DNA of 64,000 bases from the NCBI RefSeq assembly GCF_016026235.1, contig NZ_CP065613.1; one strand, written 5' to 3'. Origin of the DNA: Escherichia coli. GTDB lineage: Bacteria; Pseudomonadota; Gammaproteobacteria; Enterobacterales; Enterobacteriaceae. Position numbers and translations under genes: made by a program. Positions 1-54,563 of the stretch are shown here, in pieces (within the stretch, counting starts at the first letter, position 1; each line of letters begins with the position of its first letter). Under the pieces are notes generated by a model. It worked only from the letters and a program-made list of their open reading frames with translations, had not been told where the DNA came from and did not search any database.

Positions 1-156
1 AAACGCCCAACCGGGATGCTGACCAACAGTAATATGGAAGAGATGACCAAGTTGCTGGGCGAACGCGTGATGGACCGTATGCGCCTGGGTAACAGTTTGT
101 GGGTGATCTTCAACTGGGATAGCTACCGTAGCCGGGTAACAGGTAAAGAGTATTAA
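1..156 (+). CDS. dnaC: DnaC helicase loader, 3' end only (5' part lies outside the window)
   Basis: Frame 1 translation ends ...MEEMTKLLGERVMDRMRLGNSLWVIFNWDSYRSRVTGKEY with TAA at 154..156, which I recognise as the DnaC C-terminus; order dnaC-yjjA-opgB as in K-12. Confidence 0.8.
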   Translation, partial: KRPTGMLTNSNMEEMTKLLGERVMDRMRLGNSLWVIFNWDSYRSRVTGKEY

Positions 157-201
157 TCCCCGTTTCTGGCGGTATACTGCGACACAATTCCACCTTGAGT
201 A

Positions 202-699
202 ATGATGATGAAAACTGTTAAACATCTTCTGTGCTGTGCCATTGCCGCCAGCGCATTAATTTCCACCGGGGTGCATGCTGCGTCCTGGAAAGATGCGCTC
301 TCCAGCGCCGCCAGCGAACTTGGTAACCAAAACAGCACGACACAGGAAGGCGGTTGGTCGCTCGCGTCATTAACTAACTTGCTTAGCAGCGGGAACCAGG
401 CCTTAAGCGCAGATAACATGAACAACGCCGCAGGCATTCTGCAATACTGCGCGAAGCAAAAGCTGGCGTCGGTAACCGATGCCGAAAACATCAAGAACCA
501 GGTGCTGGAAAAGCTGGGCCTGAACAGTGAAGAGCAAAAAGAAGACACCAACTATCTGGATGGCATTCAGGGTTTGCTGAAAACCAAAGATGGTCAGCAA
601 CTCAATCTGGATAACATCGGAACGACTCCGCTGGCAGAAAAGGTGAAAACCAAAGCCTGCGATCTGGTGTTAAAGCAGGGGCTGAACTTCATTTCCTGA
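202..699 (+). CDS. yjjA: YjjA, small secreted protein of unknown function
   Basis: 165-aa ORF with signal-peptide-like N-terminus (MMMKTVKHLLCCAIAASALISTGVHA); sits between dnaC and opgB; true start may be one of the three consecutive ATGs. Confidence 0.8.
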   Translation: MMMKTVKHLLCCAIAASALISTGVHAASWKDALSSAASELGNQNSTTQEGGWSLASLTNLLSSGNQALSADNMNNAAGILQYCAKQKLASVTDAENIKNQVLEKLGLNSEEQKEDTNYLDGIQGLLKTKDGQQLNLDNIGTTPLAEKVKTKACDLVLKQGLNFIS

Positions 700-952
700 A
701 CCGCGAAACGCCGCGTTTTAGCTGTTACCCGGCTGACGCGGCTCTCTCCTGCCCTTTTCCCTGCTTCTGGACGGTTTTCCCCCTGTTACACGGGAAGCGA
801 CCGCGATCAAAAAAGTCTGTTTATAAACTAATTCCTAACAACATCGCATTTTTTTGACACTAGAATTGCAGCAATATGGCGACGCCATTACATTGTGCTT
901 CTCAAAAAGCTTAAACGTTGGCTAAACGGCCCGGTTTAGTGAGGATCGCCCG

Positions 953-3244
953 TTGTCAGAACTACTCTCTTTCGCCCTTTTTCTCGCCTCTGTGCTAATT
1001 TACGCATGGAAAGCGGGACGTAACACCTGGTGGTTTGCAGCCACATTAACGGTGCTGGGGCTATTTGTCGTTTTAAATATCACCCTGTTTGCCAGCGACT
1101 ATTTTACTGGCGATGGTATTAACGACGCGGTTCTCTATACCTTAACCAACAGCCTGACCGGTGCTGGCGTCAGCAAATACATCCTGCCGGGTATCGGCAT
1201 TGTGCTGGGGCTGACAGCGGTGTTCGGTGCGCTGGGCTGGATCCTGCGCCGTCGTCGCCATCATCCGCACCATTTTGGTTACAGCCTGCTGGCGCTCTTA
1301 CTGGCGCTGGGTTCGGTGGACGCCAGCCCGGCATTTCGTCAGATAACGGAACTGGTGAAATCCCAGTCACGCGATGGCGACCCGGACTTTGCGGCTTATT
1401 ATAAAGAGCCGTCGAAAACTATCCCTGACCCGAAACTCAACCTGGTTTATATCTACGGCGAAAGTCTCGAGCGGACCTATTTTGATAACGAAGCTTTCCC
1501 GGATCTCACGCCTGAACTGGGCGCGTTGAAAAATGAAGGCCTGGATTTCAGCCACACGCAGCAGCTGCCAGGAACGGATTACACGATTGCGGGCATGGTG
1601 GCTTCTCAGTGCGGCATACCGCTGTTTGCCCCCTTTGAAGGCAACGCCTCCGCCTCTGTCTCCAGCTTCTTCCCGCAGAACATCTGTCTGGGCGATATCC
1701 TGAAAAACTCGGGTTATCAGAACTATTTCGTGCAGGGCGCGAATCTGCGTTTTGCCGGTAAAGATGTGTTCCTGAAGTCGCATGGCTTCGACCACTTATA
1801 CGGCTCAGAAGAGCTGAAAAGCGTGGTGGCCGACCCGCACTATCGCAACGACTGGGGATTCTACGACGATACCGTTCTCGATGAAGCGTGGAAAAAGTTT
1901 GAAGAGCTTTCCCGCTCAGGTCAGCGATTCTCACTGTTTACCCTGACAGTCGATACCCATCACCCGGATGGTTTTATCTCGCGTACCTGTAACCGCAAAA
2001 AATATGATTTTGACGGTAAGCCGAACCAGTCATTCAGCGCGGTAAGTTGCAGCCAGGAGAATATCGCGGCGTTTATCAACAAAATCAAAGCGTCACCGTG
2101 GTTTAAAGATACCGTCATCGTCGTCTCTTCTGACCATTTAGCGATGAACAACACGGCGTGGAAATACCTCAATAAGCAGGATCGCAATAACCTGTTTTTT
2201 GTCATCCGTGGCGACAAGCCGCAGCAAGAGACGCTGGCAGTGAAGCGTAACACGATGGATAACGGCGCGACGGTGCTGGACATTCTCGGTGGCGATAACT
2301 ATCTCGGACTTGGTCGTAGCAGTTTATCCGGGCAGTCGATGTCGGAAATCTTCCTCAATATCAAAGAGAAAACATTGGCGTGGAAGCCGGATATCATCCG
2401 CCTGTGGAAATTCCCTAAAGAGATGAAAGAGTTCACCATCGACCAGCAGAAAAACATGATTGCCTTCTCGGGTAGCCATTTCCGTTTGCCGCTGCTGTTG
2501 CGGGTTTCAGACAAACGCGTGGAACCGCTGCCGGAAAGCGAATACTCAGCACCGCTGCGTTTCCAGCTGGCCGATTTCGCTCCACGCGACAATTTCGTCT
2601 GGGTTGACCGTTGCTATAAGATGGCACAACTCTGGGCTCCGGAACTGGCACTTTCCACCGACTGGTGTGTCTCGCAAGGGCAGCTTGGCGGTCAGCAAAT
2701 TGTCCAGCATGTTGACAAAACAACATGGAAGGGCAAAACGGCATTTAAAGATACGGTCATCGACATGGCGCGTTACAAAGGCAATGTCGATACGCTGAAG
2801 ATTGTTGATAACGATATTCGCTACAAAGCCGACAGTTTCATCTTTAACGTCGCCGGTGCGCCAGAAGAGGTGAAACAGTTTAGCGGAATTTCCCGTCCGG
2901 AGTCGTGGGGCCGCTGGTCCAACGCGCAACTGGGCGATGAAGTAAAAATCGAGTACAAGCATCCGCTGCCGAAGAAATTTGACCTGGTGATTACCGCCAA
3001 AGCATACGGCAATAACGCCAGCCGTCCTATTCCGGTACGCGTAGGCAATGAAGAACAAACCCTTGTGCTGGGCAATGAAGTGACCACCACCACACTGCAT
3101 TTCGATAACCCAACCGATGCCGACACACTGGTAATTGTGCCGCCGGAACCTGTCTCAACCAACGAAGGGAATATCCTCGGACACTCGCCGCGTAAGCTCG
3201 GGATCGGCATGGTGGAAATTAAAGTGGTGGAACGTGAAGGATAA
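953..3244 (+). CDS. opgB: Phosphoglycerol transferase I (osmoregulated periplasmic glucan biosynthesis)
   Basis: 763-aa ORF ([28 protein letters not shown]...) recognised as OpgB/MdoB; TTG start at 953; N-terminal membrane segments plus sulfatase-like domain. Confidence 0.9.
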
Positions 3245-3256
3245 TTCCTGACTGAT

Positions 3257-3285
3257 GTGTAGGTCGCATAAGGTGCGACCTACAC
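3257..3285. other. Perfect 12-bp-stem hairpin (gtgtaggtcgca / tgcgacctacac, 5-nt loop) between convergent opgB and lgoD; REP-like, no U-tract
   Basis: Inverted repeat read directly from the sequence; the tail ctgcggcctaca resembles the end of REP elements. Confidence 0.35.
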
Positions 3286-3382
3286 ACCTTCTGCGGCCTA
3301 CAAAACATCATTGAGAAACAGAAAAAAACAGCGCCCAACATTTCCTCGGACGCTGCATGGCAACTTTAATAATCTCGCCTTA

Positions 3383-4403
3383 TCAGAAAGTAATTACACC
3401 CTTAATCAACTCACGATTGTTAATCACATCGCGCTCGTAGGTTTCTGCCAGCGTGGCGAACGGATAGCGATGGGTTAACATCATGTCAGCAGTGATTTTT
3501 CCTTCCGCCATCAGTCGACCGACTTTAGCAAAATCTTCCGGCGTGGCGTTGCGGCTACCCATCATCGTCGTTTCTTTTTTATGGAATTCCGGATCGGAGA
3601 ACTGCAACTCACCTTTAAACAGGCCGACAAATACCACCGTGCCGCCGTGACGAATCAAATTCACGGTGTTATTCATCGCATGTTGATTACCTGTCGCGTC
3701 GATCACTTTCTGCGCCAGCGAACCACCAAACTGCGCCCGTAGCTGCGCGTCAAAATCTTCGGCTGACGGGTCCAGTAAAGGTAATTCCAGACGCGTTGCC
3801 ACATGTTCACGGCGCGCCGGACTGGTATCCGCCACCACCACCTGTGCGCCATCGGCTTTAGCGATTGCCGCCGCGCCCAGACCGATTGGCCCCGCCCCGA
3901 CCACCAGCACCTGCTCGCCGGGAGCAATGGCTGCGCGACGCACCGCATGAGCGCTAATAGCGAAAGGTTCAATCAATGCTGCCGCCTGCGGGCAAAATGT
4001 TCGCCACCGGCACGCTCAAATACTCACTAAAACCGCCATCCTGATGCACGCCAATGACTGAAATTTTTTCACAGCAATTGGTACGCCCGCTTTTACACGC
4101 CGGACATTGCTGACAGGCAACATAAGGGATCACAGCAACTTGCTGACCATTTTTAAGATCAGCAATATTTTTACCCAGCCCAACAATCTCCCCACATATT
4201 TCATGGCCTAAAACCCGTGGATAACTAAAAAATGGTTGATTTCCACCCCAGGCATGAATATCGGTACCGCAAATCCCGACAGACTTAATTTTTATTAATG
4301 CTTCATTGTCACCCGGAATAGGTATCTCGCGTTGTTTCCAGACTAATTCTTTCGGCTGCTGGCAAATTAAAACATTCATCGTAGACATGATTCGGCTCTC
4401 CAT
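3383..4403 (-). pseudogene. lgoD: L-galactonate-5-dehydrogenase (zinc-dependent MDR family), reading frame split in two
   Basis: Two adjacent minus-strand ORFs (3969..4403, 144 aa, Zn-ADH N-terminal domain; 3383..3976, 197 aa, Rossmann domain GAGPIGLG) in different frames that together equal one LgoD/YjjN-length protein; the frame switch lies around 3966..4000 next to an A4/T4 run. Confidence 0.7.
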
Positions 4404-4526
4404 TTTTTGTTGCCTTAGATATCAATGAAAATGAAAAATGGCAGCGGAACGGAAAATCTGTTTTGTGAAAACACACGCATAAAAATGTTTTAAATCGGGT
4501 TTTAATGGACTCACAAGGAGGAAAAT

Positions 4527-5441
4527 ATGAGTCGTTCACAAAATTTACGCCACAATGTGATTAACCAGGTCATTGATGATATGGCGCGGGGTCATATCCC
4601 TTCCCCACTTCCATCGCAAAGTGCGCTGGCGGAAATGTACAACATCAGCCGCACTACAGTGCGTCATATTCTCAGCCACTTACGTGAATGCGGCGTCTTA
4701 ACGCAGGTTGGAAACGACTATGTGATTGCGCGTAAACCTGACCATGATGACGGTTTCGCCTGTACTACCGCTTCAATGAGTGAACAAAACAAAGTGTTTG
4801 AGCAGGCTTTTTTCACGATGATAAACCAGCGCCAGTTACGCCCTGGGGAAACTTTTTCTGAACTGCAACTGGCTCGGGCCGCGGGTGTCAGCCCGGTTGT
4901 AGTAAGAGAATATCTTTTAAAATTCGGCCGTTATAATCTTATTCAAAGCGAAAAGCGCGGCCAGTGGAGCATGAAGCAATTCGATCAATCCTACGCCGAG
5001 CAGCTGTTTGAACTACGCGAAATGCTCGAAACACATTCACTTCAGCACTTTCTCAACCTGCCTGATCATGATCCCCGCTGGCTGCAGGCGAAAACCATGC
5101 TCGAACGTCATCGGCTACTGCGTGACAACATCGGCAATAGCTTTCGCATGTTCTCGCAACTTGACAGAGATTTTCACTCCTTACTGCTTTCAGCTGCCGA
5201 CAATATCTTTTTTGATCAATCTCTTGAGATCATCTCAGTCATCTTTCATTTTCACTATCAATGGGACGAAAGCGATCTTAAACAGCGCAATATCATTGCC
5301 GTCGATGAGCATATGACCATTCTCAGCGCTCTGATTTGCCGCAGTGACCTTGATGCCACCCTTGCGCTCCGTAACCATTTGAATTCAGCTAAACAATCAA
5401 TGATTCGATCCATTAATGAGAACACGCGTTATGCTCATTAA
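4527..5441 (+). CDS. lgoR: GntR-family regulator of L-galactonate catabolism
   Basis: 304-aa ORF with N-terminal winged-helix (GntR-like) region; order lgoD-lgoR-lgoT as in K-12 yjjN-yjjM-yjiZ. Confidence 0.85.
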   Translation: MSRSQNLRHNVINQVIDDMARGHIPSPLPSQSALAEMYNISRTTVRHILSHLRECGVLTQVGNDYVIARKPDHDDGFACTTASMSEQNKVFEQAFFTMINQRQLRPGETFSELQLARAAGVSPVVVREYLLKFGRYNLIQSEKRGQWSMKQFDQSYAEQLFELREMLETHSLQHFLNLPDHDPRWLQAKTMLERHRLLRDNIGNSFRMFSQLDRDFHSLLLSAADNIFFDQSLEIISVIFHFHYQWDESDLKQRNIIAVDEHMTILSALICRSDLDATLALRNHLNSAKQSMIRSINENTRYAH

Positions 5442-5654
5442 GTACGGATTAAAAACAGCAAACTATTAGCGGTGCACGGTTTTATCAAAAGATAAATACC
5501 GGGAAATTCCCGCTTACCTATGCTCACAATCAGTCGACTAAAAATGTTTTTGTGAGCGGTAGTAAAGTCCTAAAACTTTAACCTGCCGTTAATGTCAACC
5601 TTGCGTAATGCACAATTACGTAAACAATTAAAATTATAAATACAGGAGTCCGGC

Positions 5655-7016
5655 GTGGAAAAAGAAAATATCACCCTCGATCCGCGTTCTTCATTTACTC
5701 CATCTTCGTCGGCAGATATTCCCGTGCCACCAGATGGATTAGTTCAACGCAGTACCCGAATTAAACGCATTCAAACCACCGCCATGTTGTTATTATTTTT
5801 TGCGGCGGTAATCAATTATCTCGACCGCAGTTCGCTGTCGGTAGCAAATTTAACGATTCGTGAAGAATTGGGATTAAGTGCCACCGAAATCGGCGCTTTG
5901 CTCTCCGTGTTTTCACTCGCTTACGGGATTGCGCAACTTCCTTGCGGCCCACTATTGGATCGTAAAGGCCCACGCCTGATGCTGGGACTGGGGATGTTCT
6001 TCTGGTCACTGTTCCAGGCCATGTCTGGCATGGTGCACAGCTTTACGCAGTTCGTGTTGGTGCGTATCGGTATGGGGATTGGTGAAGCGCCGATGAACCC
6101 ATGTGGCGTAAAAGTCATTAACGACTGGTTCAACATCAAAGAGCGCGGACGCCCGATGGGCTTCTTCAACGCAGCTTCTACCATTGGCGTTGCCGTAAGC
6201 CCACCGATTCTGGCGGCGATGATGCTGGTGATGGGCTGGCGTGGGATGTTTATTACCATTGGTGTGCTGGGGATTTTTCTCGCCATTGGCTGGTATATGC
6301 TCTATCGCAACCGCGAGCACGTAGAACTGACTGCCGTTGAACAAGCTTATCTCAATGCAGGTAGCGTCAATGCCCGCCGAGATCCGCTCAGTTTTGCCGA
6401 ATGGCGCAGCCTGTTCCGTAACCGCACAATGTGGGGAATGATGCTCGGATTCAGTGGCATCAACTACACTGCGTGGCTGTATCTGGCCTGGCTTCCTGGT
6501 TACCTGCAAACAGCCTATAACCTGGATTTAAAAAGCACAGGGTTGATGGCGGCTATCCCTTTCCTGTTTGGGGCTGCCGGGATGCTGGTCAACGGTTACG
6601 TTACTGACTGGCTGGTCAAAGGGGGAATGGCTCCGATTAAAAGCCGTAAGATCTGCATTATTGCCGGGATGTTCTGTTCTGCCGCCTTTACGCTGGTCGT
6701 ACCGCAAGCGACAACATCCATGACGGCGGTTCTGCTGATTGGCATGGCACTGTTCTGTATTCACTTTGCCGGAACATCCTGCTGGGGCTTGATCCACGTC
6801 GCAGTTGCTTCTCGCATGACGGCGTCGGTGGGCAGTATCCAGAACTTTGCCAGCTTCATCTGCGTCTCTTTTGCGCCGATCATTACTGGTTTTATTGTTG
6901 ATACCACCCACTCATTCCGTCTGGCACTAATCATCTGCGGTTGCGTCACCGCAGCGGGAGCACTGGCGTACATCTTCCTGGTTCGTCAGCCGATCAACGA
7001 CCCGCGTAAAGATTAA
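5655..7016 (+). CDS. lgoT: MFS transporter, L-galactonate:H+ symporter
   Basis: 453-aa ORF with 12 predicted TM segments (MFS); GTG start; position between lgoR and tsr. Confidence 0.85.
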   Translation: MEKENITLDPRSSFTPSSSADIPVPPDGLVQRSTRIKRIQTTAMLLLFFAAVINYLDRSSLSVANLTIREELGLSATEIGALLSVFSLAYGIAQLPCGPLLDRKGPRLMLGLGMFFWSLFQAMSGMVHSFTQFVLVRIGMGIGEAPMNPCGVKVINDWFNIKERGRPMGFFNAASTIGVAVSPPILAAMMLVMGWRGMFITIGVLGIFLAIGWYMLYRNREHVELTAVEQAYLNAGSVNARRDPLSFAEWRSLFRNRTMWGMMLGFSGINYTAWLYLAWLPGYLQTAYNLDLKSTGLMAAIPFLFGAAGMLVNGYVTDWLVKGGMAPIKSRKICIIAGMFCSAAFTLVVPQATTSMTAVLLIGMALFCIHFAGTSCWGLIHVAVASRMTASVGSIQNFASFICVSFAPIITGFIVDTTHSFRLALIICGCVTAAGALAYIFLVRQPINDPRKD

Positions 7017-7023
7017 ACTCCCT

Positions 7024-7058
7024 ATGCCCGATAACATTTTGCTTATCGGGCATTTTTA
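7024..7058. terminator. Rho-independent terminator for lgoT, possibly bidirectional with tsr
   Basis: Stem atgcccgataa / ttatcgggcat with 8-nt loop followed by TTTT, between lgoT stop (7016) and tsr stop (7065). Confidence 0.5.
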
Positions 7059-7064
7059 TGGCGA

Positions 7065-8729
7065 TTAAAACGTTTCCCAGTTCTCCCCGCTATCTGCCAC
7101 TGCCATTTTACGCGGCGTAGCTGGCGTCACGTTTTTTACCACAGCCGATGTTTCACGCTGCTGTTGCTGCTGTTGCTGAATCCGGAACACTGCCACAGCT
7201 TCGGTCAGGCGACTGGCCTGCTCTTCCAGCGCGGCGGCGGCAGCGGCAGATTCTTCCACCAGCGCAGCGTTCTGTTGAGTTACCCGGTCCATCTCAGCAA
7301 CCGCTAAGCCAACCTGATCGATACCACGGCTCTGCTCATCAGAAGCAGAAGCAATTTCGCCCATAATGTCCGTCACGCGGGTCACGGCACTGACAATCTC
7401 CGCCATTGTTTCCCCTGCGCTTTCGACCAGCGTAGAGCCAACATCTACTTTCCCCACCGAGTCTTCAATCAGGCTTTTAATTTCACGAGCCGCCTGAGCG
7501 CTGCGCTGGGCCAGATTACGCACTTCACCCGCGACCACCGCAAAACCGCGCCCTTGCTCACCCGCGCGCGCTGCTTCAACCGCCGCGTTCAAAGCCAGAA
7601 TATTGGTCTGGAAGGCAATGCCGTCAATTACGCTGATAATATCGGCGATTTTCTGCGAACTGGTGGAGATATCGCGCATAGTCTGCACCACGTTATCTAC
7701 CACTTTGCCGCCGCGTTGCGCCGTTTCAGAAGCACTTAACGCCAGGTGGCTGGCCTGGCGCGCATTTTCGGCGTTCTGTTTCACCGTTGCGGTCAGTTGC
7801 TCCATGCTGGCTGCCGTCTCTTCCAGCGAAGCGGCCTGTTGCTCGGTGCGCGAAGAGAGATCGTTATTGCCGGTAGCGATTTCGCTGGCACCGCTATAGA
7901 TGGCATTGGCCCCGTTGCGCACATCACCGACGGTACGCATCAGCTCTCCCTGCATATGGCGCAAACTCTCTGCCAGTTGCCCCATCTCATTAGAGCCATC
8001 CACCTCAATCGGTTTCACCAGATCGCCGCCTGCAATATGACGAATGCTGTCAATCAGGCGATTCATTGGCGCTACCAACGAGGCTTTAATACCGAACCAG
8101 ACGGCGAAGATGACTGCCAGTACGACGATCATCACGCCCACCAGAATCCACATCGCCTGGCTGTAGGAGGCATTATTATCGCTGACGGCGATATCATAGA
8201 GCCGATCGTTTTGCTCCATGTAAGCCACATACTGCTTCTCGAAACCGTCCTGATATCCCTGGGTCGGCTGATCAAAGAACTCGTTGATTTTGCCTGCACC
8301 TAACAGTTGGATCAGCTCCGCCAGCGCATTGTGATAAATATCGTAATTACGTTTGATCTCTGCCGCTGCGGCGGTGCTCTGACGCGGGTCACGCGGCAAC
8401 GCTTCGTAATCCGCCCAGTTTTTTTCCGCCTGTTTCAGCGAAATACTGGCACTCTCCATCAGCTCAGCAACGGTTGAACCGCTACCAATATTATTCTGAT
8501 CCATCATGTAGCGGATACCCGCGCGGTTGAGGGTGTTACGCGTCTGCAACAACGCGACCCAGCTGCCATTCAGCGTGGATTGCTGCTGGCGAATGGTTTG
8601 TAAAACAGTGAAATTTTCTTTGTCATTCTTTAAGGCATTAAAGAACAGACCGCCTGATGTCAGTTGTAAAAGGCCAAAAACGGCCAAAACCAGCAGTAAG
8701 CTGGTCACAATTTTGATACGTTTTAACAT
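7065..8729 (-). CDS. tsr: Methyl-accepting chemotaxis protein I (serine chemoreceptor)
   Basis: 554-aa [30 protein letters not shown]... with HAMP and MCP signalling domains and C-terminal NWETF pentapeptide; contains a Q7 tract ([10 protein letters not shown]) encoded by (CTG/TTG)7 at 7158..7178. Confidence 0.9.
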
Positions 8730-8877
8730 GGTTTCTCTTTCCTGTGGACCGATGCAAGATTTTCGGCCAGGAAAGGAAAAACTTTATGAATATCCCGCGG
8801 AGATTACGCCGAGTAATTTTATTCACACTCTGAATTTAAAAAGCCATTATTTACATAAATTACTCACAATATAAATA

Positions 8878-8893
8878 TGTGATATGAATCACA
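8878..8893. promoter_or_regulatory. Consensus CRP-binding site TGTGA-N6-TCACA in the tsr-btsT intergenic region
   Basis: tgtgatatgaatcaca read directly; lies inside a longer palindrome aaatatgtgatatgaatcacatattt; established CRP consensus. Confidence 0.55.
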
Positions 8894-8941
8894 TATTTAT
8901 CGTCACTTAAACGACGCCTTTGCCGCTCAACCGCAAAACTG

Positions 8942-8970
8942 ACCGCTTACATCCCTAAAATAACCACTCA
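8942..8970 (+). promoter_or_regulatory. BtsR (YehT) LytTR-type binding site: direct repeat ACCGCTTA-N13-ACCACTCA upstream of btsT
   Basis: Two 8-bp direct repeats with a 13-bp spacer, matching the ACC(G/A)CT(C/T)A-N13 motif reported for the yjiY promoter. Confidence 0.5.
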
Positions 8971-9105
8971 GTTATTTACCTTACTTTACGCGCGCGTAAC
9001 TCTGGCAACATCACTACAGGATAGCGGTCAATTTACCTCCTCAAACGCAACGCAAACCTAGAACGGCTTCGGCCAACTATTAATCAATACATGCCAGGTT
9101 TTACT

Positions 9106-11256
9106 ATGGATACTAAAAAGATATTCAAGCACATACCCTGGGTGATTCTCGGAATCATCGGTGCATTCTGCCTCGCGGTAGTTGCATTACGTCGGGGGGA
9201 GCACGTCAGCGCCCTGTGGATCGTGGTCGCCTCTGTGTCGGTGTATCTGGTGGCGTATCGCTACTACAGTCTGTACATCGCCCAGAAGGTGATGAAACTC
9301 GACCCCACGCGCGCGACGCCTGCGGTTATTAACAACGACGGTCTGAACTACGTTCCGACCAACCGTTACGTGTTGTTTGGTCACCACTTCGCCGCTATCG
9401 CCGGTGCTGGTCCGCTGGTGGGTCCGGTTCTCGCCGCGCAGATGGGCTACCTGCCTGGCACGCTGTGGCTGCTGGCGGGGGTCGTGCTGGCCGGTGCGGT
9501 TCAGGACTTTATGGTGCTGTTTATCTCCTCTCGCCGTAATGGCGCATCTCTTGGTGAGATGATCAAAGAAGAGATGGGACCAGTACCGGGGACTATCGCG
9601 CTGTTTGGCTGTTTCTTAATCATGATCATCATCCTCGCCGTCCTGGCGCTGATTGTGGTTAAAGCCCTGGCCGAAAGTCCGTGGGGTGTCTTCACCGTTT
9701 GCTCAACCGTACCGATTGCGCTGTTTATGGGTATCTACATGCGCTTTATCCGTCCGGGGCGTGTGGGTGAAGTCTCTGTCATTGGTATCGTGCTGCTGGT
9801 TGCCTCTATCTACTTCGGTGGCGTGATTGCTCACGATCCGTACTGGGGTCCGGCACTGACCTTTAAAGACACCACCATTACCTTCGCGCTGATTGGCTAT
9901 GCGTTTGTTTCCGCACTGCTGCCGGTGTGGCTGATCCTCGCACCGCGCGACTATCTGGCAACCTTCCTGAAAATCGGCGTTATCGTCGGCCTGGCGCTGG
10001 GTATCGTGGTGCTGAACCCGGAACTGAAAATGCCTGCGATGACCCAGTACATTGACGGTACTGGCCCGCTGTGGAAAGGCGCTCTGTTCCCGTTCCTGTT
10101 CATCACCATCGCCTGTGGTGCGGTATCTGGCTTCCACGCGCTGATCTCTTCCGGTACGACGCCGAAACTGCTGGCTAACGAAACCGACGCGCGTTTCATT
10201 GGCTACGGCGCAATGCTGATGGAGTCCTTCGTGGCGATTATGGCGCTGGTTGCTGCGTCCATCATCGAACCGGGTCTTTACTTCGCGATGAATACCCCGC
10301 CTGCGGGCCTTGGCATCACCATGCCTAACCTGCATGAAATGGGTGGCGAGAACGCGCCGATCATCATGGCGCAGCTGAAAGACGTTACCGCACACGCGGC
10401 GGCGACCGTCAGCTCCTGGGGCTTCGTGATTTCGCCAGAGCAGATCCTGCAAACCGCGAAAGACATTGGTGAGCCTTCTGTCCTGAACCGTGCAGGTGGT
10501 GCGCCGACGCTGGCGGTAGGTATCGCTCATGTGTTCCACAAAGTGCTGCCGATGGCTGACATGGGCTTCTGGTATCACTTCGGTATTCTGTTCGAAGCCC
10601 TGTTCATCCTGACCGCGCTGGATGCGGGTACCCGTTCTGGCCGCTTTATGCTGCAAGACCTGCTGGGTAACTTCATCCCGTTCCTGAAAAAAACCGACTC
10701 TCTGGTTGCCGGTATCATCGGTACTGCGGGCTGTGTGGGTCTGTGGGGCTACCTGCTGTATCAGGGCGTGGTCGATCCGCTGGGCGGCGTTAAGAGCCTG
10801 TGGCCGCTGTTCGGTATCTCCAACCAGATGCTGGCAGCCGTAGCGCTGGTACTGGGCACCGTTGTGCTGATTAAGATGAAGCGCACCCAATACATCTGGG
10901 TAACTGTTGTTCCGGCTGTATGGCTGCTTATCTGCACCACTTGGGCGCTGGGTCTGAAACTGTTCAGCACCAACCCGCAGATGGAAGGCTTCTTCTACAT
11001 GGCAAGCCAGTACAAAGAGAAGATTGCTAACGGTACTGACCTGACGGCGCAGCAGATTGCCAACATGAACCACATCGTTGTGAACAACTACACCAACGCG
11101 GGCCTGAGTATTCTGTTCCTGATTGTGGTGTACAGCATCATCTTCTACGGTTTCAAAACCTGGCTTGCGGTGCGTAACAGCGACAAACGTACTGACAAAG
11201 AAACACCGTACGTTCCAATCCCGGAAGGCGGCGTGAAGATCTCTTCGCACCACTAA
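9106..11256 (+). CDS. btsT: Pyruvate/H+ symporter of the CstA family
   Basis: ORF recognised as BtsT/YjiY (MDTKKIFKHIPWVILGIIGAFCLAVVAL...); ORF track starts 5 codons upstream (9091); many TM segments. Confidence 0.9.
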   Translation: MDTKKIFKHIPWVILGIIGAFCLAVVALRRGEHVSALWIVVASVSVYLVAYRYYSLYIAQKVMKLDPTRATPAVINNDGLNYVPTNRYVLFGHHFAAIAGAGPLVGPVLAAQMGYLPGTLWLLAGVVLAGAVQDFMVLFISSRRNGASLGEMIKEEMGPVPGTIALFGCFLIMIIILAVLALIVVKALAESPWGVFTVCSTVPIALFMGIYMRFIRPGRVGEVSVIGIVLLVASIYFGGVIAHDPYWGPALTFKDTTITFALIGYAFVSALLPVWLILAPRDYLATFLKIGVIVGLALGIVVLNPELKMPAMTQYIDGTGPLWKGALFPFLFITIACGAVSGFHALISSGTTPKLLANETDARFIGYGAMLMESFVAIMALVAASIIEPGLYFAMNTPPAGLGITMPNLHEMGGENAPIIMAQLKDVTAHAAATVSSWGFVISPEQILQTAKDIGEPSVLNRAGGAPTLAVGIAHVFHKVLPMADMGFWYHFGILFEALFILTALDAGTRSGRFMLQDLLGNFIPFLKKTDSLVAGIIGTAGCVGLWGYLLYQGVVDPLGGVKSLWPLFGISNQMLAAVALVLGTVVLIKMKRTQYIWVTVVPAVWLLICTTWALGLKLFSTNPQMEGFFYMASQYKEKIANGTDLTAQQIANMNHIVVNNYTNAGLSILFLIVVYSIIFYGFKTWLAVRNSDKRTDKETPYVPIPEGGVKISSHH

Positions 11257-11264
11257 CCGTGTTT

Positions 11265-11292
11265 AGCCCCGCTTCGGCGGGGCTTTGTTCTT
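11265..11292 (+). terminator. Rho-independent terminator after btsT
   Basis: Hairpin agccccgc-ttcg-gcggggct followed by ttgttctt. Confidence 0.6.
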
Positions 11293-11305
11293 ATCAGAGT
11301 GAACT

Positions 11306-11509
11306 ATGTTTGGTAACTTAGGACAGGCAAAAAAATATCTCGGCCAGGCGGCAAAGATGTTGATTGGCATTCCAGACTACGACAACTACGTCGAGCATAT
11401 GAAGACCAACCATCCCGACAAGCCGTACATGAGCTATGAAGAATTCTTCCGCGAACGCCAGAACGCGCGCTACGGCGGCGATGGTAAAGGCGGTATGCGC
11501 TGTTGTTAA
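11306..11509 (+). CDS. yjiX: Small conserved protein YjiX
   Basis: 67-aa [55 protein letters not shown]...; immediately downstream of btsT as in K-12. Confidence 0.8.
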
Positions 11510-11519
11510 TGGAGAGAGC

Positions 11520-12476
11520 ATGAACCCGATTGCAGTTACCCTACTCACCGGTTTTTTAGGCGCGGGAAAAACCACCCTGCTGCGCCATATTCTTAACGAA
11601 CAACACGGCTACAAGATTGCCGTGATTGAAAACGAATTCGGCGAAGTCTCCGTTGATGATCAACTAATTGGCGACCGCGCCACGCAGATCAAAACGCTGA
11701 CCAACGGCTGCATCTGCTGTTCGCGCTCCAACGAGCTGGAAGACGCACTACTCGACCTGCTGGATAATCTCGACAAGGGCAATATTCAGTTTGACCGTCT
11801 GGTCATTGAATGCACCGGCATGGCCGATCCCAGCCCGATTATTCAGACCTTTTTCTCCCATGAGATTTTATGCCAGCGTTACCTGCTGGACGGTGTGATT
11901 GCGCTGGTGGATGCGGTACATGCCGACGAGCAGATGAACCAGTTCACCATCGCTCAGTCCCAGGTTGGCTACGCCGACCGTATTCTGCTGACCAAAACCG
12001 ACGTCGCAGGCGAAGCAGAAAAACTGCGTGAACGCCTGGCGCGCATCAACGCCCGTGCACCGGTCTACACCGTCACCCACGGCGACATCGACCTGGGCCT
12101 GCTGTTCAACACCAACGGTTTTATGCTGGAAGAGAACGTCGTCAGCACCAAACCGCGTTTCCACTTTATCGCGGATAAACAAAACGATATTTCGTCGATT
12201 GTGGTGGAACTGGATTACCCGGTAGATATCAGCGAAGTTTCCCGGGTGATGGAAAACCTGCTTCTGGAATCGGCAGATAAACTGCTGCGTTACAAAGGGA
12301 TGCTGTGGATTGACGGCGAACCTAACCGCCTGCTGTTCCAGGGCGTCCAGCGCCTCTACAGCGCCGACTGGGACCGCCCGTGGGGCGATGAAAAACCGCA
12401 TAGCACAATGGTGTTTATCGGGATTCAGTTGCCGGAGGAAGAGATTCGGGCAGCGTTTGCGGGGTTGAGGAAGTAA
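11520..12476 (+). CDS. yjiA: COG0523-family P-loop GTPase (metal chaperone-like)
   Basis: Walker A GFLGAGKTT near the N-terminus and CXCC motif (GCICCS); start taken at ATG 11520 (MNPIAVTLLTGFLGAGKTT), giving 318 aa; the longer ORF-track start at 11436 overlaps yjiX. Confidence 0.85.
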   Translation: MNPIAVTLLTGFLGAGKTTLLRHILNEQHGYKIAVIENEFGEVSVDDQLIGDRATQIKTLTNGCICCSRSNELEDALLDLLDNLDKGNIQFDRLVIECTGMADPSPIIQTFFSHEILCQRYLLDGVIALVDAVHADEQMNQFTIAQSQVGYADRILLTKTDVAGEAEKLRERLARINARAPVYTVTHGDIDLGLLFNTNGFMLEENVVSTKPRFHFIADKQNDISSIVVELDYPVDISEVSRVMENLLLESADKLLRYKGMLWIDGEPNRLLFQGVQRLYSADWDRPWGDEKPHSTMVFIGIQLPEEEIRAAFAGLRK

Positions 12477-12487
12477 TTTTGGATGAT

Positions 12488-12518
12488 GGCCGCCATGGGG
12501 CGGCCTGAATTATTTTTT
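12488..12518 (+). terminator. Rho-independent terminator after yjiA
   Basis: Hairpin ggccgcc-atgg-ggcggcc followed by tgaattattttttg. Confidence 0.55.
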
Positions 12519-12812
12519 GTTCTGATCGCGCAGCATCGCTTCACGTAAAATTGCGTTCAGGCGAGTTTGATAGCCTTTACCTGGTCGCTTCAACCATTCC
12601 ATCACATCAGCATCAATACGCACCGAAGCCTGAGTTTTCAATGGCCGATAAAACTTACCGCGTTCGGCGTTAGACCATTGCTCATCGCTGGAAGGTGGGA
12701 TATCACTGTAATCAATATCTTCGTCGGATTTATTCGCCAGCGCCTTCAGTTCGGCCTCATGCTGCACATCGAGTGTAGAGGAGGTCCCTCGTTTATGTTT
12801 AACCATGCTCAT
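12510..12812 (-). CDS. BrnA-like antitoxin (ribbon-helix-helix C-terminal domain)
   Basis: Internal start MSMVKHKRG... chosen; C-terminal SVRIDADVMEWLKRPGKGYQTRLNAILREAML is the BrnA signature; start overlaps the stop of the upstream toxin gene by 14 bp. Confidence 0.65.
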   Translation of the reverse strand: MSMVKHKRGTSSTLDVQHEAELKALANKSDEDIDYSDIPPSSDEQWSNAERGKFYRPLKTQASVRIDADVMEWLKRPGKGYQTRLNAILREAMLRDQNKK

Positions 12813-13113
12813 AGCGATTCCTCTCTTTACGATCTGCTTTTCGTGCACTGATGATTCGAATAATTTCATTTCCGCTTTCGAAACGGATGGTATGCGCAAC
12901 CAGAATAACCACGATGCCGTAAACCAGGCCGATTGTCTGCCAGCGATACTCACCGTTTTCTATGCGTTCTTGCTGTGACAAATGTTGTGGATCATCAAAC
13001 AATAACACCGCATCTTCAAAGCGGATGCCATGTTTCACCCGATTACTTTTGGCCTTGTTTTCATCCCATTCAAACTCCATTGGCATAATTGCCATCCCTA
13101 ATTGTATATACAA
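12799..13113 (-). CDS. BrnT-like toxin (DUF497, RelE-fold ribonuclease family)
   Basis: MEFEWDENKAKSNRVKHGIRFEDA...ISARKADRKER matches the conserved BrnT pattern (WDExK...KHG...ISxRKAxxKER); start ambiguous between 13113 and the internal Met around 13083. Confidence 0.7.
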   Translation of the reverse strand: MYIQLGMAIMPMEFEWDENKAKSNRVKHGIRFEDAVLLFDDPQHLSQQERIENGEYRWQTIGLVYGIVVILVAHTIRFESGNEIIRIISARKADRKERNRYEHG

Positions 13114-13284
13114 AAATGTATCTACAATTATTCTGCAATTATAGCGTTGATGTTGGAAATAGCATCACGTTTCGAATAATCAACCATAAAATTGACAATG
13201 AGTAAGTTGGACTTGATTCATCCAATAGAATTTCTCGCCTGACATGGCACACTAAACACCTCGCTGTCGGGTAATGACTCCAAC

Positions 13285-13787
13285 TTACTGATAGTGTTTT
13301 ATGTTCAGATAATGCCCGATGACCTTGTCATGCAGCTCCACCGATTTTGAGAACGACAGTGACTTCCGTCCCAGCCTTGCCAGATGTTGTCTCAGATTCA
13401 GATTATGTCGCTCAATGCGCTGAGTGTAACGCTTGCTGATAACGTGCAGCTTTCCCTTCAGGCGTGATTCATACAGCGGCCAGCCATCCGTCATCTATAC
13501 TACGACCTCAAAGGCCGACAGCAGGCTCAGAAGACGCTCCAGTGTGGCCAGAGTGCGTTCACCGAAGACGTGGCCACAACCGTCCTCCGTATCCTGTCAT
13601 ACGCGTAAAACAGCCAGCGCTGACGTGATTTAGCACCGACGTAGCCCCAATGTTCGTCCATTTCAGCGCAGACAATCACATCACTGCCCGGTTGTATGCG
13701 CGAGGTTACCGACTGCGGCCTGAGTTTTTTAAGTGACGTAAAACCGTGTTGAGGCCAACGCCCATAATGCGTGCACTGGCGCGACAT
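13285..13787 (-). pseudogene. insB: IS1 insB', disrupted
   Basis: InsB-homologous frame split into 13527..13787 and 13285..13494 by a frameshift and an amber codon. Confidence 0.7.
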
Positions 13788-13981
13788 CCGACGCCATTCA
13801 TGGCCATATCAATGATTTTCTGGTGCGTACCGGGCTGAGAGGCGGTGTAAGTGAACTGCAGTTGCCATGTTTTACGGCAATGAGAGCAGAGATAGCGCTG
13901 ATGTCCGGCAGTGCTTTTGCCGTTACGCACCACGCCTTCAGTAGCGGAGCAGGAAGCACATCTGATGGAAATGGAAGCCAC
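13706..13981 (-). CDS. insA: IS1 InsA
   Basis: 91-aa [46 protein letters not shown]... (zinc finger plus HTH). Confidence 0.85.
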
Positions 13982-14295
13982 GCAAGCACCTTAAAATCAC
14001 CATCATACACTAAATCAGTAAGTTGGCAGCATTACCAAATTTTAATTACACTTAAGGTGTATATTTTCTATGCAAGCCATCAATTAAAGAGGTGTAATGT
14101 TCTGATGACTATTTGTAATCGTTATACATTCTGACCTGGAGTCAGAAGGTATTTCTCTGTCTGTGTATTCGCAGGCAGTGTGGTTGATTACATGAAATTC
14201 AGTACATTTGTCCTTCTCGCCTGCCTTTCGTCATTACCGACGGTATTGAATTTCGTTTTCCCCATTGGGGTTCTCCGGACAAGGAGTTGTTTGTT

Positions 14296-15528
14296 ATGCC
14301 ACGTTTTTTTGCCCGCCATGCCGCCACGCTGTTTTTCCCGATGGCGTTGATTTTGTATGACTTTGCTGCGTATCTGTCGACGGACCTGATCCAGCCAGGG
14401 ATCATTAATGTGGTCCGTGATTTTAATGCCGATGTCAGTCTGGCCCCGGCTGCCGTCAGTCTCTATCTCGCTGGAGGCATGGCATTGCAGTGGCTGCTGG
14501 GGCCGCTTTCCGACAGGGTTGGCCGCAGGCCGGTGCTGATTACCGGGGCGCTAATATTTACCCTTGCCTGCGCTGCGACAATGTTCACAACGTCTATGAC
14601 ACAGTTTCTTATCGCGCGTGCAATTCAGGGCACCAGTATCTGTTTTATTGCCACCGTTGGTTATGTCACGGTGCAGGAGGCGTTCGGACAGACAAAAGGG
14701 ATCAAGTTGATGGCGATTATCACCTCCATCGTACTGATTGCGCCGATTATTGGCCCGCTTTCCGGCGCAGCTCTGATGCACTTTGTGCACTGGAAAGTCC
14801 TTTTTGCCATCATTGCGGTTATGGGTTTTATCTCATTTGTTGGCTTACTGCTGGCGATGCCAGAGACGGTGAAGCGCGGCGCGGTTCCATTTAGCGCCAA
14901 AAGCGTCTTGCGCGATTTTCGTAATGTCTTTTGCAATCGGCTGTTCCTCTTTGGCGCAGCAACCATCTCTTTAAGCTATATCCCCATGATGAGTTGGGTG
15001 GCTGTCTCGCCGGTGATCCTGATCGACGCGGGCGGCTTAACAACTTCGCAGTTCGCCTGGACACAGGTTCCGGTGTTCGGCGCGGTGATTGTCGCGAATG
15101 CCATCGTGGCGCGTTTCGTTAAAGATCCGACCGAACCGCGCTTTATCTGGCGTGCCGTACCCCTTCAACTGGTTGGCCTCGCGCTGTTGATTATCGGCAA
15201 TCTGCTGTCACCGCACGTCTGGCTGTGGTCGGTGCTGGGCACCAGTCTGTATGCTTTCGGGATTGGTTTGATTTTCCCGACCTTATTCCGCTTTACGCTG
15301 TTTTCCAATAACTTACCGAAAGGGACCGTCTCCGCATCGCTGAATATGGTGATCCTGATGGTGATGTCTGTCTCGGTCGAAATCGGCCGCTGGCTGTGGT
15401 TTAACAGCGGTCGCTTGCCGTTTCATCTGTTAGCCGTTGTGGCAGGCGTTATCGTCGTTTTCACCCTGGCCGGATTGCTTAATCGCGTGCGCCAACATCA
15501 GGCTGCCGAGCTGGCGGAGGAGCGGTGA
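14296..15528 (+). CDS. mdtM: Multidrug efflux MFS transporter MdtM
   Basis: ORF recognised as MdtM/YjiO ([43 protein letters not shown]...); ORF track uses TTG 14287; IS1 end lies 260 bp upstream. Confidence 0.9.
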
Positions 15529-15568
15529 TTTTTGCGCGATCCTGCCGTCAGGCTCTATTCTTAACATT

Positions 15569-16849
15569 ATGAATAAACTCATTGAACTCAGACGCGCCAA
15601 AATGTTGGCGCTCTCTTTACTGCTTATCGCCGCTGCTACCTTTGTCGTTACGCTGTTTTTGCCGCCCAATTTTTGGGTGAGCGGCGTGAAGGCGATTGCT
15701 GAAGCGGCGATGGTCGGCGCGCTGGCGGACTGGTTTGCGGTGGTGGCGCTGTTTCGCCGCGTGCCGATTCCGATCATTTCTCGTCATACGGCGATTATTC
15801 CGCGTAATAAAGACCGGATTGGCGAAAATCTCGGCCAGTTCGTGCAGGAAAAATTTCTCGATACCCAATCGCTGGTGGCATTGATTCGACGTCACGAACC
15901 GGCGTTGTTGATTGGCAACTGGTTTAGTCAGCCAGAAAACGCCCGCCGCGTTGGTCAGCATCTGTTGCAGATCATGAGCGGTTTTCTTGAACTAACCGAT
16001 GATGCGCGTATTCAGCGCCTGCTTAAGCGCGCGGTCCACCGGGCGATTGATAAAGTCGATCTTTCTGGCACCAGTGCGTTGATGCTGGAGAGTATGACTA
16101 AAAACGATCGTCATCAGGTGCTGCTGGATACGCTGATCGCACAGTTGATCGCCCTTCTCCAGCGCGATAAATCGCGCAAGTTTATTGCCCAGCAAATTGT
16201 TCGCTGGCTGGAGAGCGAGCATCCACTGAAAGCCAAAATTTTGCCCACTGAATGGCTGGGCGAACATAGCGCGGAGTTGGTTTCTGACGCGGTGAATTCT
16301 TTGCTTGATGATATCAGCCGCGATCGTGCGCATCAGATCCGCCATGCGTTTGATCGCGCTACCTTCGCCCTGATCGAGAAACTGAAAAACGATCCGGAAA
16401 TGGCGGCGCGAGCCGATGCCGTAAAAAGCTATCTGAAAGAAGATGAAGCTTTTAACCGCTATCTCAGTGAATTGTGGGGGGATTTACGGGAATGGCTGAA
16501 AGCGGATATCAACAGTGAAGATTCTCGTGTGAAAGAACGTATCGCGCGGGCTGAACAATGGTTTGGCGAAACGTTAATTGCCGATGATGCCTTGCGGGCG
16601 TCGTTAAATGGTCATCTGGAACAAGCCGCACACCGCATTGCGCCTGAGTTTTCCGCATTCCTGACTCGCCATATCAGCGACACGGTAAAAAGCTGGGACG
16701 CACGGGATATGTCGCGGCAAATCGAGTTAAATATCGGCAAAGATCTCCAGTTTATCCGTGTCAACGGTACGCTGGTTGGCGGTTGTATTGGACTTATTTT
16801 GTATTTGCTGTCGCAGCTCCCGGCCTTGTTCCCCCTCGGCAATTTATAG
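15569..16849 (+). CDS. yjiN: DUF445-family inner-membrane protein YjiN
   Basis: Start taken at [27 protein letters not shown] (426 aa); ORF track extends to 15437. Confidence 0.8.
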
Positions 16850-16964
16850 AAATCCATGAAAAACTAAGTGGCTAACCGCGAGAGAGATCAAATAAACCAC
16901 ACTAAAAGAATGGTAATAATGTGGCCTCTTTTCATTATCTCCCGTGGTACGGGGAAGGAAAATC

Positions 16965-18893
<1,929 letters not shown>

Positions 18894-19064
18894 AAGAGTA
18901 TCTGTTTTTATTTCACTCCACGGTCGGCGTCATACAAACCCGCAAGGCGTTGCAGGCAGCTGGTATGACTTTTCGCGTCAGCGATATTCCCCGTGATTTA
19001 CGCGGCGGCTGCGGGTTATGCATTTGGCTGACCTGTCCGCCTGGCGAGGAAATTCAATGGGTGA

Positions 19065-20072
<1,008 letters not shown>

Positions 20073-20139
20073 CAGGCTGGCATATTTCACCTTTTTGTTA
20101 TTAACTTGTTAACAACAAAAATGACATACAAGGTTAAAC

Positions 20140-21318
20140 ATGCCTTCGTCCTCGCATCCCGTAGAACGCTTTTCTTTCAGCACCGCGCTTTTCGGGATGC
20201 TGGTTCTGACCTTAGGTATGGGATTAGGTCGCTTCCTTTATACGCCTATGTTGCCCGTCATGATGGCGGAAGGGGCGTTTTCATTTAGCCAGCTCTCGTG
20301 GATTGCCAGCGGCAACTATGCGGGGTATCTGGCTGGCAGTCTGCTATTTTCGTTTGGCGCATTTCACCAGCCGTCGCGCCTGCGCCCATTTCTGTTGGTT
20401 TCTGCCCTGGCGAGCGGGTTGTTGATCCTCGTAATGGCATGGTTGCCGCCATTTATTCTGGTGTTATTGATTCGCTTCCTGGCGGGTGTCGCCAGCGCCG
20501 GTATGCTGATTTTTGGTTCGACGCTGATTATGCAGCACACGCGCCATCCTTTTGTGCTGGCAGCTTTGTTTTCTGGCGTTGGCATTGGCATTGCACTGGG
20601 CAACGAATATGTTCTGGCAGGCCTGCATTTTGCCTTCTCCTCGCAAACGTTATGGCAAGGCGCCGGGGCGCTTTCTGGCATGATGCTGATTGCACTTACG
20701 CTTTTAATGCCCTCGAAAAAACACGCCATCGCACCAATGCCATTGGCAAAAACGGAGCAACAGATAATGAGCTGGTGGTTACTGGCTATTCTGTACGGCC
20801 TTGCGGGATTTGGTTATATCATCGTCGCGACTTACCTGCCGCTCATGGCGAAAGATGCAGGCTCACCATTGTTAACCGCCCATCTCTGGACGTTAGTCGG
20901 CTTATCAATTGTGCCAGGCTGCTTTGGCTGGCTATGGGCAGCAAAACGTTGGGGGGCTTTGCCTTGCCTGACGGCGAATTTGCTGGTGCAGGCTATCAGT
21001 GTGCTGCTTACTCTCGCCAGCGACTCTCCTCTCTTGCTTATCATTAGTAGTATCGGTTTTGGCGGTACCTTTATGGGCACGACATCTCTGGTGATGACTA
21101 TCGCCCGCCAACTGAGCGTTCCGGGAAATCTCAATCTTTTAGGCTTTGTGACGCTCATTTACGGCATTGGACAAATCCTCGGCCCGGCGCTGACCAGTAT
21201 GCTCGGCAATGGAACATCGGCGCTTGCCGGCGCCACTCTCTGCGGCGCGGCGGCGTTGTTTATTGCTGCGCTTATCAGCACAGTACAATTATTTAAGCTG
21301 CAAGTGGTCACTTCATGA
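20140..21318 (+). CDS. yjiJ: MFS transporter YjiJ
   Basis: 392-aa hydrophobic ORF with 12 predicted TM segments; conserved position next to kptA. Confidence 0.8.
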
Positions 21319-21330
21319 GGAGTGTTTCCC

Positions 21331-21885: not shown

Positions 21886-22135
21886 CGCGTTTTCGTCCCT
21901 GGATTATCTGTTTTTTATTTACTATGTCATTGTCACTGGGTTTATGAATTTTCTGCAACTCAATCCTGCGTAGAACCTTTTCCACACAGCGTAATTTTAC
22001 CGCTATGCAAAAAACGCATAGTCAGAAACATACTTGCATTTTCCCCATACCCACATGGCTTATAAGGTTTTTCAGCTCCAGGAATTTTCCTGGCTCAAGC
22101 AACACACAAACACAAAAAAAACAATGGGGATTGTT

Positions 22136-50993: not shown

Positions 50994-50995
50994 TA

Positions 50996-52084: not shown

Positions 52085-52088
52085 CAAT

Positions 52089-53039: not shown

Positions 53040-53103
53040 GGTTTGATGTATCCTCTGAATAAAACAGTAATGATAATTTTGGTAGAGGCATTCGCACTAA
53101 ATA

Positions 53104-54528: not shown

Positions 54529-54563
54529 TCGAACAATGGCGACAACAATTTCCCATTGAAGCG

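What the first reader, a model, noticed from the sequence alone, without database searches (positions are those of the whole stretch)
3383..4403. lgoD (L-galactonate dehydrogenase) reading frame is broken
The Zn-ADH N-terminal domain and the Rossmann domain of one LgoD-length protein lie in different frames (ORFs 3969..4403 and 3383..3976), with the switch next to a short A/T homopolymer around 3993..3997. The flanking lgoR and lgoT look intact. This is either a genuine inactivation of L-galactonate catabolism or a homopolymer sequencing error.
Basis: seen in the sequence. Interest (0 to 1): 0.35.

Follow-up and report, generated by a model that had tools for sequence, protein, structure and literature searches.

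The report
lgoD pseudogene: 17-bp slippage deletion
The L-galactonate dehydrogenase gene lgoD of this enteroinvasive E. coli is genuinely broken, by a 17-base deletion between two 7-base repeats rather than by a homopolymer sequencing error, which is an ordinary case of gene decay in a Shigella-like lineage.

Summary
On the minus strand of 3383..4403, lgoD (yjjN) is split into an ADH_N fragment (139 codons, 3969..4388) and a Rossmann-domain frame (3383..3976). The proposed cause does not hold. Alignment with intact alleles shows a clean 17-bp deletion that removed one copy of the 7-bp direct repeat CCCGCAG plus the 10 bp between the copies. The TTTT run at 3994..3997 is unchanged. The rest of the gene is identical to intact lgoD of NCTC86 and FDAARGOS_943.

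The deletion is real. The same junction occurs in at least 20 separately assembled public contigs. One of them, from EIEC O143:H26 strain 4608-58, is 100% identical to window 1..10388. None of 5,387 complete RefSeq E. coli genomes carries the deletion. lgoR, lgoT and the divergent promoter region are intact.

LgoD stops after residue 134, before the NAD-binding domain, so L-galactonate can probably no longer be oxidised to D-tagaturonate. This consequence is inferred, not tested. The window is rich in IS elements and has a truncated fim operon. Published metabolic models predict loss of L-galactonate growth in S. dysenteriae and S. flexneri. This is routine reductive evolution and of low interest.

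The parts
3969..4388 (-). 5' remnant of lgoD. It holds codons 1-134 of LgoD (ADH_N, the zinc-binding catalytic/GroES-like domain), then 5 out-of-frame codons (GGSID) and TGA at 3971..3969. The mechanical ORF in the finding starts 5 codons further upstream, at 4403.
   Evidence: The exact 139-aa product is public as STM01206.1.
3383..3976 (-). 3' remnant of lgoD in the +1 frame: LgoD residues about 144-340, the Rossmann/NAD-binding domain with GAGPIG, plus the C-terminal tail. This frame is open from 4015. The first possible start is the TTG at 3976..3974.
   Evidence: DNA is identical to intact NCTC86 and FDAARGOS_943 lgoD.
3986..3992 (-). Deletion junction: the single retained copy of the 7-bp direct repeat CCCGCAG. 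Intact alleles read CCCGCAG-ACGGTATTGA-CCCGCAG here. One repeat copy plus the 10-bp spacer (17 bp) is missing.
3994..3997 (-). It is unchanged relative to intact alleles and is not the lesion.
4389..4526 (.). Divergent lgoD / lgoR-lgoT control region. It is identical to NCTC86 and differs from K-12 at 2 positions.
4527..5441 (+). lgoR (yjjM), GntR/FCD-family regulator, intact. The protein is identical to that of NCTC86.
5655..7016 (+). lgoT (yjjL), MFS L-galactonate:H+ symporter, intact. The protein is identical to that of FDAARGOS_943.

Best explanation
lgoD is a recent, lineage-specific pseudogene. A replication-slippage (microhomology) deletion between two 7-bp direct repeats, CCCGCAG, spaced 17 bp apart removed one repeat copy and the 10-bp spacer. 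This shifts the frame after codon 134 and ends translation 5 codons later. The product keeps only the N-terminal zinc-binding domain. [quoted passage not shown] The regulator LgoR and the transporter LgoT remain intact.

The lineage is enteroinvasive E. coli of the O143:H26 4608-58 type, which is undergoing Shigella-like reductive evolution.

Shown here: the lesion, its repeat context, its reproducibility across assemblies, and its absence from other E. coli. Inferred: the slippage mechanism, the loss of enzyme activity and of growth on L-galactonate, and neutral decay as the cause.
For: The three-way alignment shows one 17-bp gap flanked by CCCGCAG and no other difference from NCTC86 lgoD. 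FDAARGOS_943, the nearest complete genome (99.85% over 34.6 kb), differs inside lgoD only by these 17 bp. Intact lgoD holds only three 7-mers repeated within 30 nt, and the deletion coincides exactly with one of them, period 17.

The exact 139-aa truncated product is on at least 20 contigs. These include Logan assemblies of SRR17652784 and SRR13627093, the MiSeq/CLC draft of EIEC 4608-58 (JTCO01000048.1), and the longest carrier, a 4.56-Mb contig. All three loci fetched carry the junction and are 99.98% identical or better to the window (PMC4319576). An 85-bp junction query matches all 5,387 RefSeq complete genomes, and in the best-ranked hits listed it does so only as two pieces spanning 102 bp, so none of them has the deletion (no hit at 99% or above).

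Pfam places ADH_N in fragment 1 and ADH_zinc_N in fragment 2. YjjN/LgoD is the L-galactonate to D-tagaturonate oxidoreductase (Kuivanen & Richard 2014, as cited). The window carries IS1 copies, a truncated fimD and IS600. L-galactonate growth is a core E. coli phenotype that models predict to be lost in S. dysenteriae, S. flexneri and a third of S. sonnei.
Against: No read-level data and no phenotype could be examined. The second frame has a possible TTG start that overlaps the upstream stop, and gene callers annotate it as a CDS, so residual expression of a Rossmann fragment cannot be formally excluded. Neutral decay and selected loss cannot be told apart from one locus.
Confidence: 0.93

Rival explanations
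1. Sequencing or assembly artefact: the gene is intact in the cell, and a homopolymer miscall or an assembly error produced the apparent frameshift.
For: An A/T run of 4 lies 1-2 nt from the junction. The longest contig carrying the truncated product is 4.56 Mb.
Against: The difference is 17 bp, not 1-2 bp, and the TTTT run is unchanged. The same junction appears in an Illumina MiSeq/CLC assembly (JTCO01, PMC4319576), in two Logan assemblies of other SRA runs, and in at least 16 further similar places.
Confidence: 0.02
2. The split gene still works. Either the two fragments are both made (the TTG at 3976 re-initiating by coupling to the overlapping TGA at 3969..3971) and reassemble, or a +1 ribosomal frameshift between 4015 and 3971 yields a fused protein that lacks 6 linker residues.
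For: The break falls at the boundary between ADH_N and the Rossmann domain. The second frame is open from 4015 and overlaps the first. Gene callers predict both ORFs.
Against: In medium-chain dehydrogenases the catalytic domain is built from the N-terminal segment plus the C-terminal tail (established fold knowledge), so a cut here separates parts of a single domain. Only a weak AGG lies upstream of a TTG start, and by inspection the overlap has no known +1 slippery motif. The split arrangement is absent from 5,387 other genomes, so selection does not maintain it as an architecture.
Confidence: 0.03
3. The lesion is the same, but the cause is selection: loss of L-galactonate oxidation is pathoadaptive in enteroinvasive lineages, not neutral decay.
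For: Models predict loss of L-galactonate growth in S. dysenteriae, in S. flexneri (0% of strains) and in 33% of S. sonnei, although it is a core E. coli phenotype. Hawkey et al. report significantly overlapping phenotype losses among Shigella and EIEC. Only the enzyme is hit here; the transporter and regulator are spared.
Against: lgoD is also broken in several different ways in other E. coli contigs, for example by IS1 insertion, by another truncation, and by replacement of the neighbouring lgoT. That pattern suggests generally weak purifying selection. The closest relative, FDAARGOS_943, shares the IS1 at 13.3 kb and the shf-capU-virK-lpxM island but keeps lgoD intact. No phenotype links LgoD to virulence in the papers searched.
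Confidence: 0.1

Closest known systems
E. coli K-12 lgoD (yjjN, b4358), L-galactonate 5-dehydrogenase/oxidoreductase of the zinc-dependent medium-chain dehydrogenase family
   Same: The chromosomal position is the same, between opgB and the divergent lgoR-lgoT. Outside the deletion only a handful of synonymous-type nucleotide differences separate it from K-12, and it is 100% identical to the NCTC86 allele, which encodes the same protein, WP_000106030.1. The Pfam domains are the same.
   Different: 17 bp are missing at codons 134-140. The frame is shifted, a stop follows 5 codons later, and the two domains lie in different frames.
Catabolic pseudogenes of Shigella and EIEC (convergent metabolic reduction, Hawkey et al. 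2020, PMC7373316)
   Same: The lineage carries expanded IS1 and IS600 and has lost fim genes. It has lost a core E. coli carbon-source pathway that models also predict to be lost in S. dysenteriae and S. flexneri.
   Different: The lesion here is a small repeat-mediated deletion, not an IS insertion. It is private to the 4608-58-type lineage and is absent from its closest complete relative.
Slipped-strand (short direct repeat) deletions, the classical spontaneous deletion class described for lacI in E. coli (from general knowledge, not tested here)
   Same: Exactly one repeat copy plus the intervening sequence is lost, the repeat is 7 bp, and the spacing is short.
   Different: Nothing distinctive. 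It is a textbook example.
RspB (PDB 4ilk), the closest solved homologue of LgoD
   Same: It aligns with LgoD residues 4-340 at E = 2e-48, including the interdomain segment that carries the deletion.
   Different: It is a paralogue with a different substrate and is used here only to place the domain boundary.

Membership tests
lgoD/yjjN orthologue | Conserved position between opgB and divergent lgoR-lgoT | tested here: met
lgoD/yjjN orthologue | Near-identity to characterised K-12 lgoD DNA | tested here: met
   identical to NCTC86 and within a few substitutions of K-12, outside the 17-bp gap.
lgoD/yjjN orthologue | ADH_N plus ADH_zinc_N domains in one 340-residue polypeptide | tested here: not met
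   Both domains are present but in two frames, and the stop comes after 139 codons. It is a pseudogene of the family, not a functional member.
lgoD/yjjN orthologue | NAD-dependent L-galactonate to D-tagaturonate activity; growth on L-galactonate | not testable with these tools
   Needs an enzyme assay or a growth test.
Repeat-mediated (slippage) deletion pseudogene | Deletion equals one copy of a short direct repeat plus the spacer | tested here: met
   CCCGCAG x2 at period 17 in intact alleles, with one copy retained at 3986..3992.
Repeat-mediated (slippage) deletion pseudogene | Length not divisible by 3, with a premature stop | tested here: met
   17 bp deleted; TGA at 3971..3969.
Repeat-mediated (slippage) deletion pseudogene | Reproducible in independent sequencing data | tested here: met
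   At least 20 contigs from NCBI and Logan; 3 were fetched and all carry the junction. Raw reads were not inspected.
Homopolymer indel / homopolymer sequencing error | A 1-2 nt length change inside a mononucleotide run | tested here: not met
   The TTTT run at 3994..3997 is unchanged and the gap is 17 nt.
Programmed frameshift or naturally split gene | The split architecture is conserved across lineages | tested here: not met
   0 of 5,387 complete E. coli genomes have the junction.
Programmed frameshift or naturally split gene | Recognisable slippery site or stimulator in the overlap | tested here: inconclusive
   Checked only by inspecting 4015..3969. No prfB-like or other known +1 motif was seen, and no dedicated tool was available.

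The most novel reading that the evidence does not exclude
Loss of the LgoD step, with the transporter and regulator retained, is a selected (pathoadaptive) change. It would have arisen independently in this EIEC lineage, in S. flexneri and in S. dysenteriae, making L-galactonate/hexuronate metabolism a convergent target during the transition to an invasive lifestyle.
Probability: 0.08. Interest if true: 0.4.

Novelty: new member of a known kind. Interest (0 to 1): 0.12.

Why it matters
It matters mainly for annotation and for phenotype prediction. Isolates of this EIEC O143:H26-type lineage should be scored as lgoD-negative and L-galactonate non-utilising. The two CDSs that some pipelines call as 'putative zinc-binding dehydrogenase' should be merged into one pseudogene. 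The 17-bp junction is a clean lineage marker, absent from 5,387 complete E. coli genomes. It also adds one data point to the convergent erosion of carbon-source pathways in Shigella and EIEC. It opens no new biological question.

Tried and rejected
- **Homopolymer slip at 3993..3997:** rejected by the alignment.
- **The deletion allele in RefSeq complete E. coli genomes:** none was found with the whole-gene query or with the 85-bp junction query.
- **The 144-aa ORF from the upstream ATG at 4403:** it is not in the protein collection. Only the 139-aa product from the annotated start is present.
- **Literature searches for lgoD/yjjN:** these returned mostly unrelated hits, because 'LgOD' is used in immunology papers. 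No paper found describes this allele.
- **Functional split gene or recoding:** considered and rejected as unlikely.
- **Metagenome and GTDB-representative scans for the junction:** deliberately not run. The Logan and NCBI contigs already settle whether the deletion is real, and the scans are expensive.
- **Structure prediction:** not run, because the domain boundaries were clear from Pfam and the RspB alignment.

Full report
**Observation.** One is 3969..4403 (144 aa, MESRIMSTMNV...ANILPAGGSID*). The other is 3383..3976 (197 aa, (M)IEPFAISAHAV...GVITF*). They overlap by 8 nt and lie in different frames. Pfam places ADH_N (the GroES-like zinc-binding domain) at residues 26-133 of the first and ADH_zinc_N (the Rossmann domain) at residues 30-157 of the second. 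Intact K-12 LgoD has both in one 340-residue chain. The neighbours are yjjA, opgB, lgoR, lgoT and tsr, in the same order as in E. coli K-12 and NCTC86. The gene identity and the broken frame are therefore confirmed.

**What the lesion is.** I aligned the window's gene with intact lgoD from NCTC86 and from a K-12 derivative. The alignment shows one gap of 17 nt and nothing else relative to NCTC86.

- Intact alleles read ...ACATTTTG CCCGCAG ACGGTATTGA CCCGCAG GCGGCAGC...
- The window reads ...ACATTTTG CCCGCAG GCGGCAGC...

Exactly one copy of a 7-bp direct repeat and the 10-bp spacer are missing. The retained copy is at 3986..3992. From the annotated ATG (4388) to the stop (3383) there are 1006 nt, which is 1023 minus 17. 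Intact lgoD contains only three 7-mers repeated within 30 nt, and the deletion coincides with one of them. That is what slipped-strand mispairing between short direct repeats predicts. The mechanism is inferred; the repeat context is shown.

**Real or artefact.** The exact 139-aa truncated product (from the annotated start) is in the public protein collection as STM01206.1. The exact 197-aa second ORF is there as STM01209.1.

The 139-aa product is encoded on at least 20 contigs. They include Logan assemblies of SRR17652784 and SRR13627093, JTCO01000048.1 of GCA_000805835.1, and a longest carrier of 4.56 Mb. All three loci I fetched contain the junction. They are 99.98-100% identical to the window, and JTCO01000048.1 is 100.000% identical over window 1..10388. 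JTCO01 is the Illumina MiSeq/CLC draft of enteroinvasive E. coli O143:H26 strain 4608-58 (PMC4319576).

A 17-nt gap that recurs across different runs and assemblers is not a homopolymer or platform error. I did not see raw reads.

**Distribution.** A whole-gene query found lgoD in 5,395 of 5,426 complete RefSeq E. coli genomes. The best identity was 98.4%, which is the value expected with the 17-nt gap. An 85-bp query centred on the junction matched 5,387 genomes, and in the best-ranked hits listed it did so only as two pieces spanning 102 bp, so none of them has the deletion.

The closest complete genome is FDAARGOS_943, at 99.85% over window 1..34641. It shares the IS1 at 13.3 kb and the downstream shf-capU-virK-lpxM island, but its lgoD is intact. 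Inside the gene the only difference is the 17 bp. The deletion is therefore recent and private to the 4608-58-type lineage, and no secondary decay has accumulated.

**Consequence (inferred).** Translation stops after LgoD residue A134 plus five foreign residues. The fragment keeps the zinc-ligand region. It lacks the GAGPIG NAD-binding fold and the C-terminal tail, which in medium-chain dehydrogenases folds back into the catalytic domain (established fold knowledge; the closest solved homologue is RspB 4ilk).

[quoted passage not shown] The lgoRT and lgoD operons are divergent. lgoR, lgoT and the intergenic control region are intact. The predicted phenotype is therefore loss of growth on L-galactonate through loss of the enzyme alone.

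**Rivals.**

- *Functional split gene or +1 recoding.* The second frame is open from 4015, and a TTG overlaps the upstream stop. However, there is no good Shine-Dalgarno sequence and no known slippery motif. The cut separates two parts of one structural domain, and no other genome shows this arrangement. I rate this at about 3%.
- *Selected rather than neutral loss.* This cannot be decided here. Hawkey et al. 2020 list growth on L-galactonate as a core E. coli phenotype. Their models predict it to be absent in S. dysenteriae Sd197 and S. flexneri 2a, in 0% of strain models of those two species, and in about a third of S. sonnei. They also report that EIEC lineages lose subsets of the phenotypes that Shigella loses. 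Against selection, lgoD is also broken in other ways in other E. coli contigs: an IS1 insertion that removes lgoR and the 5' end of lgoD, a different truncation that leaves a 104-aa N fragment, and a locus in which lgoT is replaced. This points to generally relaxed constraint.

**Context in the window.** The region looks like a Shigella/EIEC-type chromosome.

- IS1 copies lie at 13269..14037, 36213..36981 and 38019..38786.
- fimD is cut after about 382 codons at the second IS1, and the fec operon follows.
- An IS-flanked polysaccharide deacetylase-capU-virK-lpxM cluster lies at 50172..54048, with IS600 next to it.
- IS content differs even from FDAARGOS_943, which has an IS5 and an IS1 that the window lacks around 57.8-58.9 kb.

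**Verdict.** This is a real, well-defined, lineage-specific pseudogene of a well-characterised gene, produced by a textbook mutational mechanism in a lineage known for gene decay. Interest is low. Its value lies in annotation, in phenotype prediction and as a clonal marker.

Noticed in passing
window 13269..14037 and 14313: An IS1 copy sits between the brnT/brnA toxin-antitoxin pair and mdtM, at the same site as in FDAARGOS_943. Just inside the mdtM start, FDAARGOS_943 has 8 extra bases (CCGCCATG) and its mdtM is annotated as frameshifted. The window lacks them and has an open mdtM frame (14287..15528).
   Followed up: partly
window 33036..38786: The type 1 fimbrial operon is truncated. fimH, fimG and fimF are present. 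fimD is open for only about 382 codons (35014..36162) and then abuts an IS1 (36213..36981). A second IS1 lies at 38019..38786. fimC and the upstream fim genes were not seen at this position.
   Followed up: partly
window 39023..46568: A complete ferric-citrate uptake operon (fecIRABCDE) lies directly after the IS1-disrupted fim region. Other E. coli such as MS15047 and NCTC9040 have the same fim-IS-fec arrangement.
   Followed up: partly
window 50172..55382: An IS-flanked cluster encodes a polysaccharide deacetylase (shf-like), capU, virK and a second lpxM/msbB-type acyltransferase, followed by IS600. From general knowledge, these genes are usually associated with the Shigella/EIEC invasion plasmid. 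Here, as in FDAARGOS_943, they are chromosomal.
   Followed up: partly
window 57581..58945 versus L003 44634..47670: The DUF2254 gene is uninterrupted in the window (430-aa ORF) but is split by an IS5 in FDAARGOS_943. That genome also has an extra IS1 just downstream. IS content therefore differs between very close relatives, which indicates ongoing transposition.
   Followed up: partly
L008, L010, L011 (other E. coli contigs carrying a 227-aa LgoD C-fragment): lgoD is broken independently in other lineages. L011 has an IS1 insertion that removes lgoR and the 5' end of lgoD. L010 has a different truncation that leaves a 104-aa N fragment. In L008 a Na+/H+ exchanger gene replaces lgoT. The 227-aa fragment is listed in 169 blocks of the collection.
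   Followed up: partly
window 22114: There is a 1-nt indel relative to FDAARGOS_943 about 22 nt upstream of the yjiH start. It is intergenic.
   Followed up: no
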